This document shows, piece by piece, positions 397 through 22,155 of a stretch of DNA of 38,414 bases. The number at the start of each line of letters is the position of its first letter. Position 1 is the first letter of the stretch. The notes under the pieces are model-generated. The model was not told where the DNA came from and made no database searches. It worked only from the letters and a program-made list of their open reading frames with translations. The stretch spans positions 1-38,414 of the forward strand of contig CAZBBK010000060.1 of the NCBI GenBank assembly GCA_964490075.1, given 5' to 3'. The stretch comes from an uncultured Gemmatimonadota bacterium. Lineage in GTDB: Bacteria > GCA-2686955. A program made the position numbers and the translations under genes.

Positions 397-2109
397 TCAC
401 TGGTCTCGGTCGCTCGAAACGTCGAATCTCCGCTCCCATTGGTGCTCACATTCCGCGCTGTGATCGAGAGTCCATACAACACTCTGCTCCATGAAGTACG
501 AGCGATCGTTCGCGCCGCCGACCGGCCAGGTCCTCCGAAAACGCCAAATGGGCCGAGTGCCCTCACCTTGAGCGTCGGCGCCTGGTCCGATCGTCGCAGA
601 CCGGGCGCCACGGCCTTCCCCGCCCGGCGGCGAATTCGAGATTGCCGACTCCGTCGACCCTGCCCCTCGGTGGGGCGGACTCGGAGCGGACGGAGATCGT
701 GGCGCAGGGATGGGGTCTGCTCGCACATCGGATCCAGCGTCTGGCGCGCGGTCCCCGGAGCGTTGCGGCCTTGGGCCATCGATCGGTTCCCGTCGTTCTC
801 GCGGCGCGGCGGAAGGGTGGAACTGGGTGTCGCCCACGATCTCCGTTGCGCCTGGCTCCTCGTCCTCATGACGTGGCCACCCCGCTCGCGATCTCTGCCC
901 CTCCACTCCGCGCCGCCCGATCGCCGGCTCCCTCTGGGGGAAGACCGATGGCGGTGCAGCTGCCCCGGGCAAAGACCCCACTCCGGGCGACAGACTACCG
1001 GGAAGAAGCGCTCGCGTATCAATCGCAATCGCGCCAGGAGGCAACACCGGCATGCCGTCCGCCGGGCTGCGCACCGCGAGGGGCCCCCGGCCGAGCACAT
1101 GCGTGTAGACCATGGTCGTGCGCAGATCGGCGTGCCCAAGCAACTCTTGAACCGTGCGGATGTCGTAGCCGTCCTCGAGCAGATGCGTCGCGAAGCTGTG
1201 ACGAAGGGTGTGGCAGCTCGCCTTCTTCTGCAGATCCGCCGCTCGCACCGCGTGCGCCATCGCGCGCTGCACGACGGTCTCGTGCAGATGATGTCGGCGC
1301 AGCTCCCCCGTCTGCCGATGATGGTAACGGCGCGTCGCCGGGAACACCCATTGCCACTTCCAGGAGCGACCGATGTCTGGGAACTTACGGGCCAATGCGT
1401 CGGGAATCTCGACCCAGCCCGCGCCCTGCTCGAGATCTCGCTCATGCTGAGCACGAACCGCCTCCATGTGCTGTGCCAGAGGGATCTGCGCCGCGCCGGC
1501 AAGCAGTGTGACTCGGTCTTTGTTGCCCTTGCCTCCACGAACCGTGAGCTGTCGCGCGGCGATGTCTACGTCCTTGATCCGCAGGCGGAGGCCTTCGAGC
1601 AGACGCAAGCCTCCGCCATAGAGGAGCAAAGCGACCAGGCGCACCGACCCCTCGAGCCGCATGATCACCGTCGCAACCTCCTCGCGTGAGAGCACCACCG
1701 GGAGGTGCTGGGCGCGCTTGGCCCGCACCAGATCCTCGAAGTCCTCCAGCTCGATCTCCAGTACGTTCCGGCACAGGAAGAGCAGCGCCGCGAGCGCCTG
1801 ATTCTGAGTCGAGGCTGAGACCTGTGCCTCGACTGCCAGTGCCGAGATGAACTGTGTCACCTCCTCGGCGTCGATCCGGTCTAGGTCCGACCACCCGCGA
1901 AAGTGGAGGAATCGCCGAACCCACTGCCAGTACGCCTTCTCGGTCTTCCGGCTGTAGTGGCGGATGCGGATCGCCGCGCGAAAGGCCTCTCGAAGCCCGG
2001 GCTCGCCGCCTGCGCTCCCGGTGCTGCCCGGTTCCATCGGCACCCGCCGCGGATTCCTGCGATCCGCGCCTTCCACCCACCGCTTGCGACTCTGCGACTC
2101 GGGCCTCAT
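397..2109 (-). CDS. intI: integron-type tyrosine recombinase (IntI family) with a ~215-aa low-complexity C-terminal extension
   Basis: Translation contains [22 protein letters not shown], the catalytic R (GLRLLEG), K (RGGKGNKDR), [12 protein letters not shown] and [16 protein letters not shown], plus the IntI-specific extra segment [22 protein letters not shown]...RRHHLHE. Strong SD (GGAGAGGAAACCAGAG ATG) at 2109. Alternative start at 2037. No stop where IntI proteins normally end (~1045), so the frame continues to 397. Confidence 0.8.
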
Positions 2110-2146
2110 CTCTGGTTTCCTCTCCGCCCGCCAAGGGTCCGAAACC

Positions 2147-2161
2147 GACCCACGGTGGGTC
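2147..2161 (-). terminator. 15-bp palindrome GACCCACgGTGGGTC followed by GGTTTC on the minus strand; weak terminator of the 131-aa gene
   Basis: Perfect 7-bp arms. Lies 20 bp downstream of the stop at 2181. A short T-containing tail follows on the minus strand. Confidence 0.3.
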
Positions 2162-2180
2162 GCGTTCCGACACCCCGGGA

Positions 2181-2576
2181 TTACGGAATAGACGATGCAT
2201 CGGATGCCTCTCGGCGGCTCCGTGGTCCCCTAGCCTCGGGCTCTCCGAATGCGTCCAGGCGGAGCTGTGCGCGTCGCGCGGCCAACGCCTCGGTCAGCGA
2301 CTCGATGTTCTCTCGCGGTTCGACGCCGTGGCGCCCCGCAGCGAGCAACAACGCGCGAAGCGTGATGGCCGGCCGCGCCGTCTGGCGCTCCCCACACCTG
2401 CGGCAGCGGAGCTCGGGTCCGTGCAGTCCGCGCCCTTCGCGCTCTACGTGAAGTCGCTCTTCGAGGCGCCGGCGCAGTGTCACGAGATCTTCCCAGCGCA
2501 TCGGGGAGCGCCACTGATCACGCAAGATGTCGACGAGCGCGGCGTACCAGATCCGCGTCACCGCCATGCCGCTCAT
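2181..2576 (-). CDS. hypothetical 131-aa protein with a C-x2-C pair (LRCRRCGE)
   Basis: Good SD (GCGAGGAGAAccgacATG). Charged, non-low-complexity composition, unlike neighbouring spurious frames. Own hairpin downstream. No family recognised. Confidence 0.55.
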
Positions 2577-2690
2577 GTCGGTTCTCCTCGCGATCTCCTG
2601 CTCCTTGTTCCCATCGGAGTCGGTTCATGATCCCTCGTCTGCAAGGAGCACGCCAGGCGAACTCCCGGCTCGGGTCTCCAGAAGGTGGAC

Positions 2691-3029
2691 TCAGATCTGG
2701 TGACGCGTCTCCGCACCTCCAATGGTCCTCCCAAGCTCCGTCAACGGTGCACCCAACGTCAGCAAGGTGCGAAACACGAGATCCAAAGAGACCGTTGGGT
2801 CAGCGGCCTCCATCTTGGCTACCTGCGACCGGCTTGACCTCACCAGCCGCGCGACCTCTGTCTGCGTCATGCTCCGCGAGGCTCGCCAATCCCTGACCGC
2901 TGCGGCCGGGGCGATCTTCACGTTCAAGAAGGCCCGTTCCTCTGCCGTCAGATCGAGGAAGTCCTCTGCGCTACCGATCTTCCATCCAGCCTTCTCCAGT
3001 CTCCTCTTCTTGTCTTCTTCTATGCCCAT
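2691..3029 (-). CDS. higA: HigA-like XRE-family HTH antitoxin (112 aa)
   Basis: MGIEEDKKRRLEKAGWKIGSAEDFLDLTAEERAFLNVK...MTQTEVARLVRSSRSQVAKMEAADPTVSLDLVFRTLLTLGAPL is the typical HigA layout: N-terminal extension followed by an XRE helix-turn-helix. ATG at 3029..3027. GC clearly lower than surrounding genes. Confidence 0.6.
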   Translation of the reverse strand: MGIEEDKKRRLEKAGWKIGSAEDFLDLTAEERAFLNVKIAPAAAVRDWRASRSMTQTEVARLVRSSRSQVAKMEAADPTVSLDLVFRTLLTLGAPLTELGRTIGGAETRHQI

Positions 3030-3230
3030 GCTCGCTCGTTGTAGATCCGCGTCATGGGCGCGCAGCCGCTGTCTGCTTGAATCGAGTACAGCTTTCGGGG
3101 TCTTGCCGGTCTTCCTGCTGAACACCGCCGCAATGACGATGGCGTCTTCGTCCATTCGATAGATGATCCTCCGACTCTGGTCGCCATCCTGAATTCGCAA
3201 CTCGCGGCAGCGCGGCGCCTGCGCTGACAT
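3030..3230 (-). pseudogene. remnant of a RelE/ParE-fold HigB toxin (C-terminal ~50 aa only), fused in frame to higA
   Basis: ELRIQDGDQSRRIIYRMDEDAIVIAAVFSRKTGKTPKAVLDSSRQRLRAH matches the ELR...YR...F.KKTQKTP core of Gp49/HigB toxins. The ~55-aa N-terminal half is absent: upstream residues are unrelated and overlap a DNA repeat. No stop codon lies between this segment and the higA ATG (LQRAS-MGIEE). Confidence 0.45.
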
Positions 3231-3282
3231 GAGACGAGAATGCGGCAGGCCCGGCACAGCGATCCTCCACGCAGGAAGCGCG

Positions 3283-3428
3283 GCCGGCACGCGAAGAAGA
3301 GCTGTCGAGACCACCTTCCTACCGCGCCTGGAACCCGGAGGCCCGCGGGCTCCCGCTGGGTCCGCGGTTCTTCGCGGAGTGCGTCGCTCGAGAGGCGCTC
3401 TGTCGAAACCCCTGATCCGGTCCAATCA
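3283..3428. repeat. copy 1 of a ~130-bp repeated element (inverted copy at 37958..38088)
   Basis: The reverse complement of 3283-3408 aligns with 37958-38088 at roughly 85% identity, e.g. CGACGCACTCCGCGA(A/G)GAACCGCGG(A/G)CCCAGCGGGAG(C/T)CCGCGGGCC. Conservation is equal in all reading frames, so it is non-coding. About 17-bp imperfect direct repeats (TCGACAG.GC.CT.TTCG-like) flank an ~80-bp core. Confidence 0.55.
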
Positions 3429-3430
3429 CC

Positions 3431-3446
3431 TTTGCCCGCGGGCAAA
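3431..3446. other. perfect 16-bp palindrome TTTGCCCGCGGGCAAA, 15 bp after the DUF1016 stop
   Basis: Self-complementary as read. No U-run follows on either strand. Confidence 0.4.
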
Positions 3447-3460
3447 CATCTCCCGCTCCG

Positions 3461-4216
3461 CTACTCGGCCCGCCTCTCCAGCAGCCTCCGAACGATCTCC
3501 GCCGGATCCGCCCCCTCTTCGAGCACGAAGGCGACCACGTGCCCGGAGCCGCCCGCCAGCGGCTCGATCAGCCCCTCGAAGGGCGCCTCGTCCGCCGCCC
3601 GTTTCAGGGCGTTGAAGTGGTGGCGCGCCCGCACCGCCACGGGCTGGTTCGGCTTGCGCCCGCGGCGCGAAAGCGGCCGGCCGAGCAGCTCCAGGTGCTG
3701 GTCGGCCAGCCATTGGTCGAACTGCGGCCGCGACATCTCGACGAGATCGTCGGCCTGCTCGGCCACAGCGGCGCGGGCAGCCGGTTCGCGCAGCAGCGGC
3801 GTGAGCTGGCGGGCGCGGCTCCAGGGCAGGCGCTCGATCTGGGGCAGCAGCTCCGCGTCGGGGTCGGCGCCGTGGAACTCGTGGGCCCGGTAGAGGGTGG
3901 AGGCGTCGATGCCGGTGTCCTCCGCCAGGCTCCTGAAGATCCGTCCGCCGTAGCGCCGGCGGCGATCGCCCTGCGCCAGGAAGCGGTCGATGCGCTTGCC
4001 GATCTCCCAGTAGATCTTCACCATCGCGGCAAAGCGGCTCCGGCAATGGCTCGCCAGCTCGACGTAGCCCTTTTCCGCCTGCAGCTCCGGGTCGGCGTTG
4101 CCGCGCGCCTGGTGGACGATGCTGCGATCCAACGAGCGACCGTTTCCGGCGACCTCCCTCGAGCCGGAAACGGGCTCCGCGACTGCGTCAGCGTTGCGGT
4201 CCGTGACGTCTGCCAT
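3461..4216 (-). CDS. DUF1016 (YhcG-family) N-terminal-domain protein lacking the PD-(D/E)xK nuclease half
   Basis: KIYWEIGKRIDRFL...RRRYGGRIFRSLAEDTGIDASTLYRAHEFH and LPWSRARQLTPLL match the YWxIG...RAxYG...LSxxL...NLxxMRxFY and LSWSHY..LL motifs of the DUF1016 N domain. Only 251 aa, and the C-terminal 80 aa are unrelated to PD-(D/E)xK. SD with A6 tract (CGAAAAAAGGGGCGAACAATG) at 4216. Confidence 0.6.
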   Translation of the reverse strand: MADVTDRNADAVAEPVSGSREVAGNGRSLDRSIVHQARGNADPELQAEKGYVELASHCRSRFAAMVKIYWEIGKRIDRFLAQGDRRRRYGGRIFRSLAEDTGIDASTLYRAHEFHGADPDAELLPQIERLPWSRARQLTPLLREPAARAAVAEQADDLVEMSRPQFDQWLADQHLELLGRPLSRRGRKPNQPVAVRARHHFNALKRAADEAPFEGLIEPLAGGSGHVVAFVLEEGADPAEIVRRLLERRAE

Positions 4217-4499: not shown

Positions 4500-6125
4500 T
4501 TACCCCTTCGTCCGAAACGCCCGCGCCCCTCCCAGGCCCAGCTTCTGCATCCGGCTGCGCAGAGTGCTCGGGTTGATCCCGAGCAGCTCGGCCGAGCCGC
4601 CGGCCCCGTACAGCTTGCCGCCGGTCCGCTCCAGCGCCCGCTCGATGTGTTGTCGCTCCGCGTCGCGCAGAGTCGGGAAGGGCTGCTCGTCTTCGAGCAA
4701 AGCGCTGGGTGTCCGGCCCGGCCCCCGCATCACCCCTGCCGCGTCCGCTTCCGCGCCCCCTTCACCGCCCCGGTCGCTCGGCCGGTCCCCATCCAACCCC
4801 AGCTCCAACTCCGGTCCGGAGCTCAAGATCGTCGCCCGCTCCAGCAGGTTGATCAGCTCGCGCACGTTGCCGGGCCAGTCACGCGCCCGCAGCCGCGCCC
4901 CAACCCCCGCGCCGAGCCGCCAGGGACCGCGTCCGGTGCGCCGCGCCAGCTGCTCCAAGAACCCCTCGGCGATCGCCTCGATGTCATCGGGACGCTCGCG
5001 GAGCGCCGGCATCTCGATCGGGAAGACCGCCAGGCGATAATAGAGGTCCTGCCGAAAGCGCTGCTCCGCCACCGCTCGCGGCAGATCGATGTTGGTGGCG
5101 GCGATCACCCGCACGTCGACGCGCAGGCTGCGGTCGCTGCCGACCGGCTCGAAGCAGCCCTCTTGCAGGGCGCGCAGCAGCTTGGGCTGCAGCTCGACCG
5201 GCATCTCCCCGATCTCGTCCAGGAAGAGGGTGCCGCCGTTGGCCGCCTGGAAGCGGCCGATGCGCGCCTTGGTGGCGCCCGAGAAGGCGCCTTTGACGTG
5301 GCCGAAGAGCTCGCTCTCGATCAGGTTGGCCGGCAGGGCGGCGCAGTTGATGCCGATCAGCGGACGGGCGGCGCGCGGGCTCCAGCCGTGGATGGCGCTG
5401 GCCAGCACCTCTTTGCCGGTGCCGGTCTCGCCGGTGATCAGCACCGGGGTGTCGGCGGCGGCCACGGCGCGCGCGGTGCGCACGATCAGGGTCATGGCGG
5501 GGCTGCGGTTGGCCTCCATCATGGCGCAGGCGTCGCGGCGCTCCTCGACCCGCTCCCCCAGGAGCCGGTTCTGCTCCTTGAGCTGCTGGCTCAACCGGCT
5601 CAGCAGCGCCGACTGCTCGCCGTAGCTCATCGCCATCGCCAGGAGCTTGCCGAACACGTCGGCCAGGTCCACCACCTGGGCGGGATACACAGCGCAGACA
5701 CGCCGGTCGAAGGTCATGATCCCGAGGGGACCGGAATGCGCCCGCAGGGGAACCACCATGCAGGAATGCCCGTGCGGCAGGTCGAGCACGCCGTCGAAAG
5801 CGTCGCCATCGCCGTCGCGATGATCGTGCTCGGTGAATGGCCGCGCATGATCCTGCTCCAGGAGCGCGCGAATGCTGGGGAAGCGCTCCAGCTCCAGCAG
5901 GTGGCGCCGCACCGCCGGACCGGCCAGCGACCCGCGCGCCACCCGTACGTGCAGCGCGTCGCCGCGCAGCTCCATGATGGTCGCCAGGTCGTAGGGGACC
6001 AACCGGCCCAGAGTCTCCATCGCCTGGCCCAGCAATTCGTTCACCTGCTCGACCGACGTGGCCAGCCCGGCCGCCTGACGCAGATCGCGGGTCAGATCGA
6101 GAATCGTCTTCGAGGATGGAACCAT
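4500..6125 (-). CDS. sigma54-dependent transcriptional activator, GAF-AAA+-Fis-HTH architecture, no receiver domain
   Basis: [15 protein letters not shown] (Walker A), [15 protein letters not shown] (GAFTGA-type sigma54 contact loop), C-terminal [21 protein letters not shown] (Fis-type HTH), N-terminal ~170-aa GAF-like domain. SD GGGAGGGAGAC ATG at 6125. Alternative ATG at 6140. Confidence 0.85.
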
Positions 6126-6169
6126 GTCTCCCTCCCGCATCCGGTGGTCGGGCGGATGAGCTACCCCTC

Positions 6170-6529
6170 TCAGCGCTCGGACCACACCGCCAGCTCGTTG
6201 CCGCTCGGATCTTCGAAGTGAAAGCGGCGGCCTCCGGGAAAGTCGAAGGGCTCCCGCACGATCCGTCCTCCGGACGCCCGGACCTTCGCCAGCGTTGCGG
6301 GAAGATCGTCGGAGAACACCACGACCAGAGGTCCCCCGGCCGACAATTCGGCGTCCACCCGAAATCCCCCGATCTCCCGATCTCGTCCCTGGATGCCGGC
6401 GTACTCGGGTCCGTAGTCGTTGAACGTCCATCCCAACGCCACTTCGTAGAAGCGTTTCGATTCGGCCATGTCGGTGACCGCGAACTCGATGTAGTCGATG
6501 TCGTGGTGAATGGGGCGGACGGGCTCCAT
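6170..6529 (-). CDS. VOC / glyoxalase-bleomycin-resistance-dioxygenase superfamily protein
   Basis: 119 aa: [26 protein letters not shown]...[15 protein letters not shown]. Lies 44 bp upstream of the sigma54 activator on the same strand. Confidence 0.75.
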
Positions 6530-6563
6530 CTCTGGCCTCCGTGATGAGGACTCGGATTCGACC

Positions 6564-6629
6564 GCGCGATTTCGCGGCCGCCCGAGCGTAGCGCGATATT
6601 TCGAGATCGGCGAGCGTCAAATGTCGCGG
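6564..6629. promoter_or_regulatory. three spaced copies of a CGCGA(t/c)ATTTcG(a/c)-like motif; candidate activator (UAS) sites and/or VOC promoter elements
   Basis: GCGCGATTTCGCGG (6564-6577), GCGCGATATTTCGAG (6591-6605), and inverted CCGCGACATTTGACG (6615-6629), spaced ~26 bp apart. They lie 70-140 bp upstream of the sigma54 -24/-12 element and 35-100 bp upstream of the VOC ATG. Confidence 0.35.
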
Positions 6630-6700
6630 GATCTGCCGCCGGTTCCCACCGCCACATCCCAACTCATTGTCTCCCAATCACTTCCACCACATTACCCGAC

Positions 6701-6717
6701 TGGCACGGCGCCTGCAA
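6701..6717 (+). promoter_or_regulatory. sigma54 (-24/-12) promoter reading into ahpC-sodB
   Basis: TGGCACGgcgcCTGCAA against consensus TGGCACG-N4-TTGCW. GG and GC are exactly 12 nt apart, with one mismatch (C for T at the -12 region). Sits ~90 nt upstream of the ahpC ATG. A sigma54 activator gene is divergent. Confidence 0.5.
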
Positions 6718-6806
6718 TCAGTCCATCCGCGACCGGCGCCACCGACCTGAATCGCCCCCCCCCCGGCGACGCGCCATCCACCCACCCCCCACCGAAAGAG
6801 CGACCC

Positions 6807-7403
6807 ATGAACAACCTGATCGGCAAGCAAGCCCCCGTCTTTTCCGCCCCGGCGGTCCTTCCCAACAACACGATCGAGGACAGCTACAGTCTGAACGATC
6901 TGCAGGGCAAATACGTGGTCCTGTTCTTCTACCCGCTCGACTTCACCTTCGTCTGCCCGACCGAGATCATCGAGTTCAATCGCAAGCTCGACGCCTTCAA
7001 GGAGCTGGGCGCCGAGGTGGTCGGGGTGTCGGTCGACAGCCAGTTCAGCCACCTGGCGTGGAAGAACACCGCCGTCAACGAGGGCGGGATCGGCAACATC
7101 CAGTATCCGCTGGTGGCCGACCTGACCAAGCAGATCAGCCGCGACTACGGGGTGCTCTTCGAGGACGCCGGCATCGCCTTCCGCGGCACCTTCCTGATCG
7201 ACCGCGACGGCATCGTCAAGCACGCGGTGGTCAACGACCTCGGCCTCGGCCGCAATGTCGACGAGACCCTGCGCATGCTCCAGGCCCTGCGCCACCACGA
7301 GCAGCACGGCGAGGTCTGCCCGGCCAACTGGAACGAGGGCGACGAGGCGATGACCCCGAGCCCGGCCGGCGTCGCCGACTATCTCAGCAAGCACGGATCG
7401 TGA
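6807..7403 (+). CDS. ahpC: typical 2-Cys peroxiredoxin, alkyl hydroperoxide reductase subunit C
   Basis: [12 protein letters not shown] (peroxidatic Cys) and GEVCPANW (resolving Cys). 198 aa. No ahpF follows. Confidence 0.9.
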
Positions 7404-7417
7404 CGAGGAGACAGACA

Positions 7418-8020
7418 ATGGCCTTCCAACTTCCCGCCCTGCCCTGGTCCTCGGACGCCCTGGAGCCGTACATCTCAGCCCAGACGATGAGCTTTCACTA
7501 CGGCAAGCACCACGCCGCCTACGTCAACAAGCTCAACGCCGCCATCGAGGGCACGCCCTACGCCGAGATGAGCCTGGAAGAGATCGTGCGGGCCACCGCC
7601 GGCGACTCCACCAAGGCCGGCATCTTCAACAACGCCGCCCAGACCTGGAACCACACCTTCTTCTGGAGCTCGATGAGGCCGGATGGCGGCGGCGCTCCGA
7701 CTGGCGACCTGGCCGCCAAGATCGACGCCGCCTTCGGCAGCTTCGAGGCCTTCAAGGATCAGTTCGCCGCCAAGGCCGCGACCCTCTTCGGCAGCGGCTG
7801 GACCTGGCTGGTCCTGAACAAGGGCGAGCTCGAGATCGTCCAGACCACCGGCGCCGGCAACCCGATGACCGAGGGCGCGACCCCGCTCCTGACCCTCGAC
7901 GTCTGGGAGCACGCCTACTACCTCGACTACCAGAACCGCCGCCCCGACTTCATCGGCGCCTTCCTCGACAACCTGGTGAGCTGGGACTTCGCGGCCCAGA
8001 ACCTGGCGTACGCCGGCTGA
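7418..8020 (+). CDS. sodB: Fe/Mn-family superoxide dismutase
   Basis: HYGKHHAAYVNKLN, FGSGWTWL and DVWEHAYYLDYQNRRPDFI motifs. SD GAGGAG 7 nt upstream of the ATG. Lies 14 bp after the ahpC stop. Confidence 0.9.
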   Translation: MAFQLPALPWSSDALEPYISAQTMSFHYGKHHAAYVNKLNAAIEGTPYAEMSLEEIVRATAGDSTKAGIFNNAAQTWNHTFFWSSMRPDGGGAPTGDLAAKIDAAFGSFEAFKDQFAAKAATLFGSGWTWLVLNKGELEIVQTTGAGNPMTEGATPLLTLDVWEHAYYLDYQNRRPDFIGAFLDNLVSWDFAAQNLAYAG

Positions 8021-8052
8021 TCGGCCGCCGCCGCCATCCCCCCCAACGCGAA

Positions 8053-8102
8053 GCGCCCCCGCGCGGCTCCGTGACGGAGCGCGGCGCGGGGGCGCTTTCT
8101 TT
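8053..8102. terminator. intrinsic terminator between convergent sodB and pckG
   Basis: GCGCCCCCGCGC-GGCTCCGtgaCGGAGC-GCGCGGGGGCGC, a nested perfect hairpin, followed by TTTCTTT on the plus strand. Confidence 0.6.
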
Positions 8103-8140
8103 GGGTGTGGGAGGCCGGCGGGGCGAGCCTCGCCAGCAGG

Positions 8141-10102
8141 CTAGAGCTCGCGGAGCTGCTGCGGCGTGACGATCGAGCCGTACATCTCCTTCAGCGCGAT
8201 CAGCCCGGCCTTCTGCTCGCTGAGCACATCGAAGAGCCGCTCCGGAACCCGGTCCTCCTTGCGGTAGGCCTCTTCCTGCAGGTCGATGCGGGCGACGATC
8301 TTGTCGATGTAGAGCGAGAACTGCTTGGTGTAGAGCGCCTCGCCGTACTCCTTGTCGATGATCGACTCGAAGAGGTTGCGCAGGTCCTCGTACTGCGGCA
8401 GGTTGCCGACCGGCGAGTCGATCGCGCCCACCTCGCCGTGGGCGTAGCGCTCCAGCCAGGCCAGCCAGACCTTCACGTCGCGCTTCTCGCCGAGCAGCTT
8501 CTTGGAGCTTCCGCCACGCGCCTCTTCGGTGAGGAAGTAGTTCAACCCGGCCATCACCGGACGCTTGTCGGCGGCGATCTTGTCGGAGTTGAAGAACTGG
8601 AACTGCACGTCCATGTAGTCGCCCAGGGCGCCGGGGATGAAGGGGGCGTTGGCCCAGGGGGCGCGCTTCACGCCGCTCGCTCCGACCTCGGTGGCGGTGG
8701 CGGCCGACACGATGCAGGCGCCGATCGTCACGCCGGCGTCGGCGTTGGCGGCCACCCAGACCGGCGGCATGGTGTCGGCGTCGCGGCCCGAGTAGGTCAC
8801 CATCCGGGTCTCGACCCCGGCCGGATCCTCGGCGGCCTCGCAGTAGTTGGCGAGCGCGGTCGACGGCACGGTGCAGCGGGCGTTGGGATGCGAGATCGGC
8901 ACCTCTTTGCCCTTCGCGTCGACCATGCCCTGGGTCCACTCACCCTGGAAGTTGCGGCCGGAGCTGGGATGCACCTCGCCATTGCCGGTCCAGTGCGGCT
9001 TGCCCTGGTCGTCGATCAGGACGTTCGACCAGATCACCTCGGTGGCCGGCTCGCGCAAGAGCTTCATCAGGTGCGGGTCGCCTTCCCAATTGACGTCCTC
9101 GACGATGCCGAAGATGCCGCATTCGGGATTGATCGAGCGCACGCCGCCGTCGTCGGCGATCCACATCTGGGCCAGGTCGTCGCCCACGAAGAGATCACCG
9201 GCCATCGCCGTGGTGGTCTTGCCGCAGCCGCTGGGGGCGGCGCCGACGCACCAGGTGACGCGCCCGCCGGGGCCCTGGATGCCGGTGATGAACATGTGCT
9301 CGGAGAGCTCCTCGCCGCCGCCCTTGTAGATCGCCTTGTCGACGGCGAAGCGGTGGTTGCCCTTCTTCATGAGCAGGGTGTTGCCGGCGTAGGTGCAGTT
9401 GAAGCTGTAGGTGGTCCACAGCTTGCGGTCCATGAAGACGCGCGCGTTGGGCAGGTCCTCGGGACGGTTCAGGCCTTCGGAGTGGATGTTGGCGAAACAA
9501 TGGCCGAGGCGCTCCACCTCGCCGTCGAACTCGGCGTAGATGTTGCGGTAGAGGATCTCGGCGCTGTGGCAGACGTAGGCCGAGCTGGAGATCTCGAGCG
9601 CCGGGTTGGAGACCGGCGCGCCGGCGGGACCGCGCGAGTAGAAGCCGATCACCATCGTCTTGCCGCGCATGATGCCGCTCATGTGGGTGCGCACTTCGTC
9701 GAGCGCCACGCCGCGCAGCTTCTTCTTGGCCAGTGAGCTGAGCGCCTCGCCTTCGTCGACGATGTAGAAGGTGCGGTCGACGATCCGCCCCTGCTCCCCG
9801 GACAGGTCGTAGTGGATGGTGTGCTCGGCCATCGGCAGGGGCGCTTCCTCGCCCTTGTCGAGCGCCATCTGGCGGATGAAGGCCAGGTCCTCGGCGGAGC
9901 CGGTGTTGACGTAGATCTCGTCGGGCTCGCACATCAGAATCGCGTTGGCGATCTTGAGGAGGACGTCGGGGTTCTTGATCACGCCGAGCCGTGCCAGGTG
10001 CTCGGGGCTCATCTTGCTCTCGAACACACGGGTCGCCTCGGCGGCGGTCTTGATCCCCCCGATCTCTTGAACGATATCCAAGCCTGCGGCTGTCTCCGAC
10101 AT
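8141..10102 (-). CDS. pckG: GTP-dependent phosphoenolpyruvate carboxykinase
   Basis: Full-length similarity to GTP-PEPCK: kinase-1a loop GAAPSGCGKTT, WIADDG, FNCTYAGN. SD AGGAGA 6 nt before the ATG at 10102. Confidence 0.9.
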   Translation of the reverse strand: MSETAAGLDIVQEIGGIKTAAEATRVFESKMSPEHLARLGVIKNPDVLLKIANAILMCEPDEIYVNTGSAEDLAFIRQMALDKGEEAPLPMAEHTIHYDLSGEQGRIVDRTFYIVDEGEALSSLAKKKLRGVALDEVRTHMSGIMRGKTMVIGFYSRGPAGAPVSNPALEISSSAYVCHSAEILYRNIYAEFDGEVERLGHCFANIHSEGLNRPEDLPNARVFMDRKLWTTYSFNCTYAGNTLLMKKGNHRFAVDKAIYKGGGEELSEHMFITGIQGPGGRVTWCVGAAPSGCGKTTTAMAGDLFVGDDLAQMWIADDGGVRSINPECGIFGIVEDVNWEGDPHLMKLLREPATEVIWSNVLIDDQGKPHWTGNGEVHPSSGRNFQGEWTQGMVDAKGKEVPISHPNARCTVPSTALANYCEAAEDPAGVETRMVTYSGRDADTMPPVWVAANADAGVTIGACIVSAATATEVGASGVKRAPWANAPFIPGALGDYMDVQFQFFNSDKIAADKRPVMAGLNYFLTEEARGGSSKKLLGEKRDVKVWLAWLERYAHGEVGAIDSPVGNLPQYEDLRNLFESIIDKEYGEALYTKQFSLYIDKIVARIDLQEEAYRKEDRVPERLFDVLSEQKAGLIALKEMYGSIVTPQQLREL

Positions 10103-20536: not shown

Positions 20537-21694
20537 GTGCTGACGGTGGCGCTGGTGCTGCTGGGGTGGCTGGTTCTCGGCTACCCGGCTGCGGTCCTGG
20601 CCGCCGCCCGACTGCGCCGCCGGCGCATTCGCCGCGATCCGCGCCACCGGCCGCCGGTGGTGGTCGTGGTGCCGGCCTGCAACGAGGCGCGCGCGCTGCC
20701 GGGGCGGCTGGCGAATCTGCTCGATCAGTCGCACCCGCCGCGGGCGATCGTGGTGGTCACCGACGGCTCATCCGACGACACCCACGCGGCGGCTCGAGCG
20801 GCGGCGGCGGACGATCGGCGCATCGTGGTCCTGGAGCCGGGGCCGCGGCGCGGCAAGCTGGCGGCGATCGGTCGCGCCCTCGAGGCCTGCCCCGGCGAGG
20901 ATCTCGGCGGCGCCGCGTTGGTGGTGCTGACCGATGCCAACACATATTTCGAGCAGGACGCACTCGGCCGTCTCTGCGCCCACTTCGCCGATCCCGAGGT
21001 CGGCTCGGTGAGCGGCGCGCGGCGGGTCGCTCCGGAGGGCGCGCTGGCGGCGGGCCTGGCTAGCTACGAGCGTCGCTTGCTGCGGGCCGAGTCGGATCTG
21101 GGCTGCGCCATCGGCGCCGCCGGCGAGCTGCTGGCGCTGCGCCTCGACCTGGCGCGGAGAATCATCCCGGCCCTCGACGCCGCCACCGTCAATGACGATT
21201 TCGCGCTGGCGATGGGCGTGGTCAGAGCCCGCAAGCGACACCTTTTCGATGGCGCGCTACGGGCCACTGAAGCACCACCGGCGCGGCGCCGCGAGGAGCT
21301 GGGGCGGCGCACGCGGATCAGCGCCGGGCGCGCCCGCGACCTGGCGCGCCTGGTGCAGGGCCCCTGGCTGCTCGCGCGCCCCTGGATCGCTTTCGCCATC
21401 TTCTCGCACAAGGGGCTGCGCCTGCTGGCGCCGGTCCTGGTGCTGGCGCCCCTCGCGGCGGCGCTGAGCGCCGCTGGAGCGATCGGGAACGCGGCGCGAG
21501 CGACGGCGCTCCTGGCGCTGGCTACGCCCGCTGCGGCGCGGCTGATTCCCGCCGGCGCCGGCGGGCGGACCGGCACGCTGCTGCGCACCGGAGCCGACCT
21601 GCTGACCGACGCGGCGCTCTACTGGGCGGGCGGGCTGCTGGGGCTGGGATTTGCGGCGCTCGGCCGCGCCCCCTGGCCGCGGGAGCCGCGCTAG
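20537..21694 (+). CDS. membrane-anchored GT2 family glycosyltransferase
   Basis: VVVVPACNEARAL, VVVTDGSSDDT, VLTDANT (DxD-like). N-terminal TM helix and C-terminal TM region. GTG start 5 bp after the glgP stop, so exact start uncertain. Confidence 0.6.
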   Translation: MLTVALVLLGWLVLGYPAAVLAAARLRRRRIRRDPRHRPPVVVVVPACNEARALPGRLANLLDQSHPPRAIVVVTDGSSDDTHAAARAAAADDRRIVVLEPGPRRGKLAAIGRALEACPGEDLGGAALVVLTDANTYFEQDALGRLCAHFADPEVGSVSGARRVAPEGALAAGLASYERRLLRAESDLGCAIGAAGELLALRLDLARRIIPALDAATVNDDFALAMGVVRARKRHLFDGALRATEAPPARRREELGRRTRISAGRARDLARLVQGPWLLARPWIAFAIFSHKGLRLLAPVLVLAPLAAALSAAGAIGNAARATALLALATPAAARLIPAGAGGRTGTLLRTGADLLTDAALYWAGGLLGLGFAALGRAPWPREPR

Positions 21695-22155
21695 TCCTGT
21701 CTCGTTCCCCTGCGCACCGGCCGAAACAGCGCCTCTTCGGCGCTCAGCAGGCCGTTGCCGTCGATGTCGGTCTTCATGAACGCCTTGCGCGTTCCCGCGA
21801 ACTCCGCCTTGTCGAGAAAGCCGTCGCCGTCGGCGTCGAAGGACTCGATGAAACGGCTGCCGCGCTGCACCGGCGGCAGCCCGTCGCTGGAGTCGGGCAG
21901 AAGATCCGCCGCGCTGAGATTCCCGTCCCGGTCGGCGTCGAGGCGGAGAAAACGCAGATCTCCGCCGGGGAACTCCTCCTTGGGGATCATCCCGTCGCCG
22001 TCGCCGTCGTAGTGCGCGAAGACCGCGGCGACCGCGGCATCGATCGGCAGCGCCGCCGGGTCGTCGTGCAGCGCGCGGAGCACCAGAAGGGCGCCCAACG
22101 CCACGCCCAGAACCAGCATCGCGAGGTCCGGTCCTTTGGACCGCTCACCACTCAT
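21691..22155 (-). CDS. secreted/membrane-anchored EF-hand calcium-binding protein with four DxDxDG loops
   Basis: DGDGDGMIPKEEF, DADRDGNLSAADL, DADGDGFLDKAEF, DIDGNGLLSAEEA. Strong SD GGAGGA. Hydrophobic N-terminus. Confidence 0.75.
   Translation of the reverse strand: MSGERSKGPDLAMLVLGVALGALLVLRALHDDPAALPIDAAVAAVFAHYDGDGDGMIPKEEFPGGDLRFLRLDADRDGNLSAADLLPDSSDGLPPVQRGSRFIESFDADGDGFLDKAEFAGTRKAFMKTDIDGNGLLSAEEALFRPVRRGTRQD

What the first reader, a model, noticed from the sequence alone, without database searches (positions are those of the whole stretch)
6530..6806. ahpC-sodB driven by a sigma54 promoter, with a divergent GAF-domain sigma54 activator and a triple-repeat candidate enhancer
TGGCACGgcgcCTGCAA at 6701-6717 has the invariant GG and GC exactly 12 nt apart. 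It reads into ahpC, whose ATG is ~90 nt downstream. The divergent operon encodes a VOC-fold protein and a receiver-less GAF-AAA+-HTH enhancer-binding protein. Three ~14-bp motifs (GCGCGATTTCGCGG, GCGCGATATTTCGAG and an inverted CCGCGACATTTGACG) sit 70-140 bp upstream of the promoter, which is classic UAS spacing. Peroxiredoxin and SOD genes are normally sigma70-dependent and OxyR/PerR-controlled. Placing both under a GAF-sensor sigma54 activator would be an unusual oxidative or nitrosative stress circuit. GAF activators such as NorR sense small ligands including NO.
Basis: partly seen in the sequence, partly recalled or inferred. Interest (0 to 1): 0.6.

Follow-up and report, generated by a model that had tools for sequence, protein, structure and literature searches.

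The report
PexR-type sigma54 switch driving ahpC-sodB
The promoter, the three upstream repeats and the divergent activator are real and conserved, but they form a peroxide-stress switch (PexR) first described in Myxococcus in late 2025, so this is a new example of a known system, with a superoxide dismutase gene added to the controlled operon.

Summary
TGGCACGgcgcCTGCAA (6701-6717, +) is the best sigma54 -24/-12 match in the window. It lies 90 nt upstream of ahpC (6807-7403), which is followed after 14 nt by Fe-sodB (7418-8020) and a strong terminator. Three 16-bp boxes of 5-n6-5 dyad form lie upstream (6562-6577, 6591-6606, 6614-6629; centres 29 and 23 bp apart). Divergently there is a VOC gene (6170-6529) followed by a GAF-AAA+-HTH activator (4500-6125).

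The box spacing and distance to the promoter recur in register in five orthologous loci; the boxes and promoter also recur, at other spacings, in L003 and L089. In a metagenome sample, 41 of 72 loci carry a -24/-12 element on the target strand, against 1 of 72 on the other strand.

The activator is a PexR homologue (Myxococcus xanthus MXAN_1565; NAR 2025, PMC12754779). It keeps H102, H120, C122 and D140, the Zn/Fe ligands of the peroxide-sensing GAF domain, at the same residue numbers. Its neighbours elsewhere are ahpC, rubrerythrin, katG and trxB-like genes.

What is lineage-specific: sodB in the operon (4 close relatives, 0 of 80 sampled loci), a VOC gene ahead of pexR, CGCG rather than CACCG half-sites, and GAFSGA instead of GAFTGA. 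New member of a known kind; modest interest.

The parts
4500..6125 (-). pexR homologue: 541-aa GAF-AAA+(sigma54 interaction)-HTH_8 enhancer-binding protein, ATG at 6125 preceded by GGGAGGGAG
   Evidence: Pfam; best NCBIfam hit is NorR but below its cut-off; 50-54% identical to the Pyxidicoccus PexR orthologue in locus L003; start region read
5628..6044 (-). GAF sensor domain with PexR metal-pocket residues H102 (5820-5822), H120 (5766-5768), C122 (5760-5762), D140 (5706-5708); D108, D111 and C144 are also present
   Evidence: residue roles taken from PMC12754779
5013..5507 (-). AAA+ sigma54-interaction domain: Walker A GETGTGKE (5409-5432), GAFSGA loop (5274-5291), Walker B LFLDEIGE (5205-5228)
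4539..4673 (-). C-terminal Fis-type HTH DNA-binding domain
6170..6529 (-). 119-aa VOC/glyoxalase-fold gene, first gene of the divergent transcript; its stop is 44 nt from the pexR ATG; GGAGG ribosome-binding site
   Evidence: absent from 80 of 80 other PexR loci
6562..6577 (.). UAS box S1, CCGCG-CGATTT-CGCGG, a perfect 5-n6-5 dyad centred at about -156
6591..6606 (+). UAS box S2, GCGCGATATTTCGAGA (strong half-site on the left), centred at about -127
6614..6629 (-). UAS box S3, CCGCGACATTTGACGC read on the minus strand, centred at about -104
6701..6717 (+). sigma54 -24/-12 promoter TGGCACGgcgcCTGCAA; predicted start near 6726-6729 (inferred), giving a leader of about 80 nt
6807..7403 (+). ahpC, a typical 2-Cys peroxiredoxin of 198 aa
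7418..8020 (+). sodB, an Fe-type superoxide dismutase of 200 aa; 14-nt gap after ahpC with a GAGGAG ribosome-binding site, so most likely co-transcribed
8050..8103 (+). intrinsic terminator: long G+C hairpin followed by TTTCTTT, ending the ahpC-sodB operon (convergent PEPCK gene beyond it)
   Evidence: -45.3 kcal/mol, z = -4.1

Best explanation
This is a PexR-type peroxide-stress switch. The divergent gene at 4500-6125 encodes a PexR homologue.

Proposed mechanism:
1. Dimers of the activator sit on the three dyad boxes S1-S3, about 105-155 bp upstream of the start site.
2. In the resting state the N-terminal GAF domain, holding Zn2+ or Fe2+ through H102, H120, C122 and D140, inhibits the AAA+ ATPase.
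3. Hydrogen peroxide, and probably organic hydroperoxides, oxidise the site and release the metal.
4. The AAA+ domain then assembles into an active oligomer, loops to sigma54-RNA polymerase bound at TGGCAC-N5-CTGCA (6701-6717), and uses ATP to open the promoter.
5. The transcript starts near 6727 and carries ahpC and sodB as one bicistronic message, ending at the hairpin at 8050-8103.

What is shown here by sequence and comparison: the gene identities; the promoter and box positions; conservation of the box architecture and spacing across lineages; the ligand residues; and the tight ahpC-sodB linkage.

What is inferred from the M. xanthus work: the signal, metal release, autoinhibition and sigma54 dependence.

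Also inferred: co-transcription of the VOC gene with pexR, and autoregulation through the boxes, which lie 32-100 nt upstream of the VOC start codon.
For: Genes and domains.

Promoter: the only perfect consensus match in the window and its top PWM hit.

Boxes: they are the three best positions in the window for a PWM built from other loci.

Conserved architecture: the same 29-bp and 23-bp centre spacing and the same distance to the promoter (-156/-127/-104) recur in L081, L093 and L094, and in register in L087 and L085. Only the boxes are conserved in the ungapped comparison.

Promoters in orthologous loci: sigma54-type promoters precede the divergent target gene in 8 other hand-checked loci, drawn from a Pyxidicoccus genome, MAGs labelled Planctomycetes/Planctomycetota or Nitrospirae, and unlabelled metagenome contigs. 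Among metagenomic loci they occur in 41 of 72 on the target strand against 1 of 72 on the other strand. Those promoters have triple 5-n6-5 dyads upstream.

Neighbouring genes in 80 metagenomic loci: ahpC in 34, rubrerythrin in 11, katG in 2. Other loci have trxB-like, katG or rbr-CCG neighbours.

Ligands: H102, H120, C122 and D140 are invariant and at the same numbering as in M. xanthus PexR.

Experimental basis for the mechanism: PMC12754779.
Against: - No experiment exists for this organism. It is known only from marine metagenome contigs, and rpoN is not in the window.
- The box half-site is CGCG/TCGCG rather than the CACCG bound by M. xanthus PexR.
- The sigma54-contact loop is GAFSGA, not GAFTGA.
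- No sigma70-type promoter was detected, so the repressor half of PexR's dual role cannot be shown.
- In M. xanthus the superoxide generator paraquat did not induce the regulon, which makes the presence of sodB in the operon slightly unexpected.
- M. xanthus PexR itself was not available. Homology was measured against a Pyxidicoccus orthologue that is truncated at the contig end.
Confidence: 0.8

Rival explanations
1. It is a NorR-like nitrosative-stress circuit. The GAF iron centre binds NO, and the activator switches on ahpC (which has peroxynitrite reductase activity) and sodB to limit peroxynitrite formation.
For: NorR is the best NCBIfam hit over the whole length. NorR also uses three upstream sites and a metal-containing GAF domain. 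The PexR authors state that PexR might also sense NO.
Against: The score of 367 bits is below the NorR equivalog cut-off of 476. The pocket carries the PexR His/His/Cys/Asp ligand set. None of the three boxes contains the NorR GT-N7-AC motif (direct reading; the motif itself is from my own knowledge). No NorR target (norVW, hmp, norB) was noticed among the called genes and Pfam annotations next to the 11 distinct homologue loci examined; the tblastn panel used on the 80 metagenomic loci held no NO-detoxification query, so it says nothing on this point. The neighbours found there are peroxide and oxygen-defence genes.
Confidence: 0.06
2. It has PexR architecture but a shifted or broader signal in this GAFSGA, CGCG-box clade. 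The sensor could respond to oxygen exposure or superoxide in low-oxygen marine bacteria, and that would explain why sodB and, in relatives, rubredoxin and rubrerythrin are the targets.
For: sodB is in the operon in the window, L081, L094 and L087 but in 0 of 80 more distant loci. L087 and L093 have rubredoxin and rubrerythrin clusters behind the same promoter type. The contigs come from marine metagenomes that also hold other PexR-bearing organisms.
Against: All four metal ligands, and the other residues tested in M. xanthus, are unchanged. ahpC remains the first gene of the operon. SOD produces H2O2, so coupling SOD with AhpC under a peroxide sensor needs no new signal.
Confidence: 0.12
3. 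The -24/-12 match is fortuitous or vestigial. ahpC-sodB would be transcribed only from an unrecognised housekeeping promoter, and the activator would act elsewhere or only as a repressor.
For: 7 of 100 random 38-kb sequences contain an equally good PWM match somewhere. M. xanthus ahpC also has a sigmaA promoter that provides basal expression.
Against: The promoter and box architecture is conserved in position and strand across many lineages, while the surrounding intergenic sequence is not. No sigma70 consensus was found in 6100-8200.
Confidence: 0.02

Closest known systems
PexR / sigma54 control of ahpCD and katB in Myxococcus xanthus (MXAN_1565; Bastida-Martinez et al., Nucleic Acids Res 2025, PMC12754779)
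   Same: Both have the GAF-AAA+-HTH architecture without a receiver domain. H102, H120, C122 and D140 sit at identical residue numbers. The regulator gene is divergent from ahpC. There is a sigma54 -24/-12 promoter 40-110 nt upstream of the target gene. Three 5-n6-5 dyad boxes with an A/T-rich centre (CGAnATnTCG) lie about 100-160 bp upstream, the 5' arm being better conserved than the 3' arm. The paper already reports homologues outside Myxococcota beside ahpC, rbr and ccp.
   Different: The outer half-site bases are CGCG/TCGCG, not CACCG. The operon is ahpC-sodB rather than ahpC-ahpD(-dps); superoxide dismutase is not mentioned in the paper's main text and occurs in 0 of 80 sampled loci. A VOC gene precedes pexR in the divergent transcript. 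The loop is GAFSGA instead of GAFTGA. No sigmaA promoter overlapping the boxes could be recognised. The host is an uncultured marine bacterium that is not a myxobacterium.
NorR (E. coli norVW, Ralstonia norAB): NO-sensing GAF enhancer-binding protein
   Same: Same domain order, autoinhibition by a metal-containing GAF domain, three upstream sites at similar distances, and sigma54 dependence. NorR is the best curated-family hit.
   Different: The score is below the NorR equivalog cut-off. The ligand set, box sequence and target genes all differ. The PexR paper gives about 33% overall and about 19% GAF-domain identity between PexR and NorR.
OxyR- or PerR-controlled ahpC and sod genes (E. coli, B. 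subtilis)
   Same: The physiological output is the same: peroxide-induced peroxiredoxin expression.
   Different: Those are sigma70-type promoters with LysR- or Fur-family regulators that sense through a Cys thiol or Fe-His oxidation. Here an ATP-dependent sigma54 activator is used, and no oxyR or perR gene lies in the window.

Membership tests
PexR-type peroxide-responsive bEBP system | GAF - AAA+ sigma54-interaction - Fis-type HTH architecture with no receiver domain | tested here: met
   Pfam: GAF_3 at 28-165, Sigma54_activat at 206-370, AAA_lid_14, HTH_8 at 484-528
PexR-type peroxide-responsive bEBP system | GAF metal-pocket residues H102, H120, C122 and D140 (required for metal binding and H2O2 sensing in M. 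xanthus) | tested here: met
   All four are present at the same numbering and are invariant across 19 and across 7 homologues, including the Pyxidicoccus orthologue.
PexR-type peroxide-responsive bEBP system | Full-length homology to myxobacterial PexR (the paper's criterion: at least 47% identity and at least 90% coverage) | tested here: inconclusive
   54% identity over residues 12-397 plus 409-434 to the Pyxidicoccus orthologue, which sits in ahpC-ahpD-dps synteny. That contig ends inside the gene, so coverage reaches only about 80%. The M. xanthus protein itself was not available.
PexR-type peroxide-responsive bEBP system | Divergent peroxide-defence gene preceded by a sigma54 -24/-12 promoter | tested here: met
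   TGGCACG-N4-CTGCA lies 90 nt upstream of ahpC. The same arrangement occurs in orthologous loci.
PexR-type peroxide-responsive bEBP system | Three dyad-symmetric 5-n6-5 UAS boxes upstream of the promoter | tested here: met
   S1-S3 at 6562-6629 have the same geometry. Their arms are CCGCG/CGCGG rather than CACCG/CGGTG, and the central CGAnATTTCG core is shared.
PexR-type peroxide-responsive bEBP system | SigmaA-type ahpC promoter overlapped by the boxes (repressor function in the resting state) | tested here: inconclusive
   A consensus scan of 6100-8200 found no sigma70-like promoter. The promoter consensus of this lineage is unknown.
PexR-type peroxide-responsive bEBP system | H2O2-triggered metal release that relieves GAF autoinhibition and gives sigma54-dependent induction | not testable with these tools
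   Needs reporter assays, EMSA and metal analysis. Known only for M. xanthus.
Bacterial enhancer-binding proteins (sigma54 activators) | GAFTGA sigma54-contact loop plus Walker A and Walker B motifs | tested here: inconclusive
   Walker A (GETGTGKE) and Walker B (LFLDEIGE) are present. The loop is GAFSGA, a conservative T-to-S change shared by nearly the whole non-myxobacterial clade. From my own knowledge, the PspF T86S variant stays active. The conserved sigma54 promoters argue that the loop is functional.
NorR (NO-responsive bEBP) | Score at or above the NCBIfam NorR equivalog cut-off | tested here: not met
   367.1 bits against a cut-off of 476
NorR (NO-responsive bEBP) | NorR boxes (GT-N7-AC) and NO-detoxification target genes (norVW, hmp, norB) | tested here: not met
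   No GT-N7-AC motif in S1-S3 (direct reading; motif from my own knowledge). The targets are ahpC-sodB here and ahpC, rbr or katG elsewhere.

The most novel reading that the evidence does not exclude
In this uncultured marine lineage the PexR switch has been rewired. Fe-superoxide dismutase has joined ahpC under the sigma54 promoter, a VOC-fold gene has been placed at the head of the pexR transcript, and the DNA boxes and sigma54-contact loop have diverged (CGCG arms, GAFSGA). The most novel reading not excluded is that this clade's metal-GAF sensor responds to a broader or different cue than H2O2, such as superoxide or oxygen exposure in low-oxygen water, with the VOC protein acting as an accessory. 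That would make it a combined superoxide and peroxide sigma54 regulon. The narrower claim, that sodB is a genuine PexR/sigma54 regulon member here, I rate at about 0.7.
Probability: 0.15. Interest if true: 0.5.

Novelty: new member of a known kind. Interest (0 to 1): 0.3.

Why it matters
PexR is a very recent addition to the short list of bacterial peroxide sensors (OxyR, PerR, OhrR).

This locus, together with about 90 related loci collected here, shows that the full cis-architecture is kept well outside Myxococcota: a sigma54 promoter plus three dyad boxes, with 29-bp and 23-bp spacing in the window's subclade. The DNA half-site has drifted, which offers natural variants for studying PexR-DNA recognition.

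The locus also gives the first indication that a superoxide dismutase can be part of a PexR-controlled operon.

For the genome scan, the main value is calibration. A tool-free reader correctly reconstructed a real and recently validated regulatory circuit, but the circuit is no longer new.

Tried and rejected
- The genome-contig scan with the full-length alignment used generic AAA+ peptides. It returned mostly unrelated enhancer-binding proteins; only L001-L003 were orthologues. A GAF-only alignment (A3) fixed this for the metagenome scan.
- The first four-term literature search found nothing. A different term set found the PexR paper. The paper's supplementary tables are not held, so I could not check whether its list of non-myxobacterial homologues includes sod neighbours.
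- The sigma70 promoter scan found nothing. By eye, TTGACG-N16-TATCGC (minus strand, inside S3-S2) and TTGTCT-N17-CATTAC (plus strand, just upstream of -24) are weak candidates only, and I do not rely on them.
- Rfam and tRNA scans found nothing in the window, so there is no known RNA element in the roughly 80-nt C-rich ahpC leader.
- The PDB sequence search found only AAA+ domain relatives and no solved PexR or NorR GAF domain. Structure prediction was not run because the tool returns no coordinates from which to measure the metal pocket.
- NorR membership was considered and rejected.
- Taxonomy stays unresolved. The nearest named relatives of the window's topoisomerase IV B subunit are Rhodothermales at about 63% identity. 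The nearest named PexR homologue is from a Gemmatimonadota MAG at 74%.
- No second cluster of PexR boxes and no second strong sigma54 site exists in the window.

Full report
**1. Observation**

The region was read directly. TGGCACGGCGCCTGCAA occupies 6701-6717 on the plus strand, with GG at 6702-6703 and GC at 6714-6715, the canonical sigma54 spacing. The ahpC ATG is at 6807.

It is the only zero-mismatch match to TGGCACN5YTGCW in the 38.4-kb window. A PWM built only from promoters of orthologous loci, with the window excluded, scores it 16.5 bits against 10.5 for the runner-up. Seven of 100 random sequences of the same size and first-order composition reach that score somewhere on either strand. 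A hit inside the correct 277-bp intergenic region and on the correct strand is therefore very unlikely to be chance.

The three repeats are real. The repeat finder reports them with start spacings of 29 and 52 bp. They are best described as 16-bp boxes of 5-n6-5 form:
- S1, 6562-6577, CCGCG-CGATTT-CGCGG, a perfect dyad.
- S2, 6591-6606, GCGCGATATTTCGAGA.
- S3, 6614-6629, which reads CCGCGACATTTGACGC on the minus strand.

A PWM from boxes of other loci ranks these as the three best positions in the whole window (20.5, 18.5 and 13.4 bits; best of 60 random windows 19.0).

**2. Anatomy**

Pfam and NCBIfam give the following genes:
- A 119-aa VOC/glyoxalase-fold protein at 6170-6529 (minus strand).
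- A 541-aa GAF + Sigma54_activat + AAA_lid + HTH_8 protein at 4500-6125 (minus strand). Its ATG lies 44 nt after the VOC stop, behind a GGGAGGGAG ribosome-binding site.
- A typical 2-Cys AhpC at 6807-7403 (plus strand).
- An Fe-type SodB at 7418-8020 (plus strand).

The ahpC-sodB gap is 14 nt and contains GAGGAG. After sodB a long G+C hairpin followed by TTTCTTT forms a strong terminator (-45.3 kcal/mol, z = -4.1), facing a convergent GTP-dependent PEPCK gene. Thus ahpC-sodB is a two-gene operon, and VOC-activator is most likely a divergent two-gene operon. The rest of the window is ordinary chromosome: topoisomerase IV or gyrase subunits, glycogen phosphorylase, a sulfatase and a BNR-repeat protein. 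It has no rpoN, oxyR or perR.

**3. Comparative evidence**

The activator belongs to a well-conserved family. Homologues are 55-74% identical over the full length, and those carrying a source name are labelled Gemmatimonadota, Planctomycetota, Nitrospirae, Deltaproteobacteria or Myxococcota MAGs.

Contexts fetched for individual homologues:

| Locus | Source | Divergent neighbour |
|---|---|---|
| L081 | Tara contig, 74% identity | ahpC-sodB followed by PEPCK (the window's synteny, without VOC) |
| L094 | Planctomycetota MAG | ahpC-sodB |
| L087 | Planctomycetes MAG | unknown gene, rubrerythrin, rubredoxin, ahpC, sodB, ferritin |
| L093 | metagenome | unknown gene and rubrerythrin |
| L085 | metagenome | thioredoxin-reductase-like gene |
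| L089 | 6.87-Mb metagenome-assembled contig | rubrerythrin, CCG, DUF3501 |
| L002 | Haliangiales | katG |
| L003 | Pyxidicoccus | ahpC-ahpD-dps |

In eight of these loci a sigma54-type -24/-12 element precedes the divergent gene. In L081, L093 and L094 the three boxes have exactly the window's centre spacing (29 and 23 bp) and distance to the promoter (about -156, -127 and -104). L087 and L085 align in register. In an ungapped six-way comparison only the boxes are conserved, while the roughly 70-bp spacer is not.

A GAF-specific scan of metagenome contigs produced 80 further loci:
- 50 have peroxide-defence genes directly upstream and divergent: ahpC in 34, rubrerythrin in 11, katG in 2.
- 41 of 72 loci with enough upstream sequence carry a -24/-12 element on the target strand, against 1 of 72 on the other strand.
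- Triple 5-n6-5 dyads precede those promoters. They read CACCGAnATnTCGGTG in ahpCD-type loci, with CACGA or TCGCGA variants elsewhere.

**4. Identification**

A literature search found Bastida-Martinez et al., Nucleic Acids Res 2025;53(22):gkaf1408 (PMC12754779). Its main findings are as follows.
- PexR (M. xanthus MXAN_1565) is a GAF-AAA+-HTH enhancer-binding protein encoded divergently from ahpCD-dps.
- It binds three dyad repeats (CACCG-n6-CGGTG) upstream of sigma54 promoters of ahpC and katB. This was validated by 5'-RACE, -24/-12 mutations, ChIP-qPCR and EMSA.
- It is autoinhibited by a Zn2+/Fe2+-binding GAF domain whose ligands are H102, H120, C122 and D140.
- It is activated when H2O2 releases the metal.
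- It also represses a sigmaA ahpC promoter that overlaps the boxes.
- The paper reports about 60 homologues outside Myxococcota, near ahpC, rbr or ccp.

The window's protein has H102, D108, D111, H120, C122, D140 and C144 at the same residue numbers, and these are invariant across the family. It is 54% identical to the Pyxidicoccus orthologue, which sits in MXAN_1562-1565 synteny.

NorR is the best curated-family hit but falls below its cut-off (367 against 476 bits). The boxes lack the NorR GT-N7-AC motif. No NO-detoxification gene was noticed next to the homologue loci whose gene contexts were examined. I therefore file the locus as a PexR-type system and not as NorR.

**5. Mechanism**

The most likely mechanism is the PexR one. 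Activator dimers occupy S1-S3. The metal-loaded GAF domain blocks the ATPase. Peroxide removes the metal. The AAA+ ring then contacts sigma54 holoenzyme at 6701-6717 and opens the promoter, giving an ahpC-sodB transcript that starts near 6727.

Shown here: the parts, their positions and their conservation.

Inferred from M. xanthus: the signal, metal release and sigma54 dependence.

Inferred from layout: co-transcription of VOC with pexR, and autoregulation. The boxes lie 32-100 nt upstream of the VOC start codon. In L081 pexR itself starts at that same distance, which suggests that the VOC gene was inserted at the head of the pexR transcript.

**6. What differs from the published system**

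- sodB follows ahpC in the window, L081, L094 and L087 but in none of 80 more distant loci. The paper's main text never mentions superoxide dismutase, and it reports that paraquat did not induce the M. xanthus regulon.
- The VOC gene is unique to this contig lineage (0 of 80).
- The box arms are CGCG rather than CACCG, with the shared core CGAnATTTCG.
- The sigma54-contact loop is GAFSGA throughout most of the non-myxobacterial clade, while Pyxidicoccus has GAFTGA.
- No sigma70-type promoter could be recognised, so the repressor half of PexR's dual role is undetermined here.

**7. Rival explanations**

- A NorR-like NO sensor is unlikely (about 0.06).
- A PexR scaffold with a shifted or broader signal, such as superoxide or O2, is possible (about 0.12).
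- A chance or vestigial promoter is very unlikely (about 0.02), given the strand- and position-specific conservation.

**8. Verdict**

However, it is an instance of a system published on 31 December 2025, so I classify it as a new member of a known kind, with small lineage-specific twists (sodB, VOC, box sequence, GAFSGA). Interest is modest, at 0.3.

The host is an uncultured marine bacterium of unresolved phylum. Its contig is seen in ENA and JGI marine metagenomes. The nearest named ParE relatives are Rhodothermales at 63% identity.

Noticed in passing
window 397-4216 (minus strand): Directly downstream of pexR lie a DUF1016-like gene (3461-4216), an HTH_3 protein (2691-3425) and a tyrosine recombinase/phage integrase (397-2109). 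This may be a remnant of an integrated mobile element bordering the stress locus. The DUF1016 gene also follows pexR in the sister contig L091.
   Followed up: partly
window 6755-6764 and the whole 6727-6806 leader: The predicted ahpC 5' leader of about 80 nt is extremely C-rich, with a run of 10 C at 6755-6764 and repeated CCACC motifs. No Rfam family matches it, and it was not examined further.
   Followed up: no
L087 3221-3664 and L093 3265-3708 (also L101): A conserved 147-aa protein with no Pfam family above threshold (only a weak rubrerythrin-like signal, E about 0.01) is the first gene behind the PexR-type sigma54 promoter in two loci. The two copies are 69% identical. It is a candidate for an uncharacterised peroxide-stress protein.
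   Followed up: partly
window 5274-5291; alignment A1: The sigma54-contact loop reads GAFSGA in nearly all non-myxobacterial PexR homologues. One has GAYSGA, one deltaproteobacterial member has GAFTGA, and Pyxidicoccus has GAFTGA. This is a clade-wide natural T-to-S variant of the GAFTGA motif.
   Followed up: partly
L090 1821-3875: In one Planctomycetes MAG, two Transposase_31 genes sit immediately upstream of pexR where the target operon is expected, and no sigma54 promoter or boxes remain. A glyoxalase-fold gene lies just beyond them.
   Followed up: no
L088 2372-3799 (identical promoter sequence in L108-L110): In the homologue whose cluster is labelled Nitrospirae by NCBI (P0082, found on many contigs), the divergent gene behind a TGGCACGccccTTGAT element is a 475-aa protein with no Pfam family, only a faint cytochrome c signal. 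It may be an unrecognised peroxidase.
   Followed up: no
window 21691-22155 (minus strand): A 154-aa protein made of several EF-hand calcium-binding motifs. It is unrelated to the finding.
   Followed up: no
L083/L084 and L091: The same marine metagenome assembly (ENA ERZ23498668) contains both the window's contig (scaffold_4708) and a second, 70%-identical PexR homologue on another scaffold. That second copy has no adjacent ahpC, only a rubrerythrin gene 3 kb away. PexR-bearing organisms therefore co-occur in this habitat.
   Followed up: no
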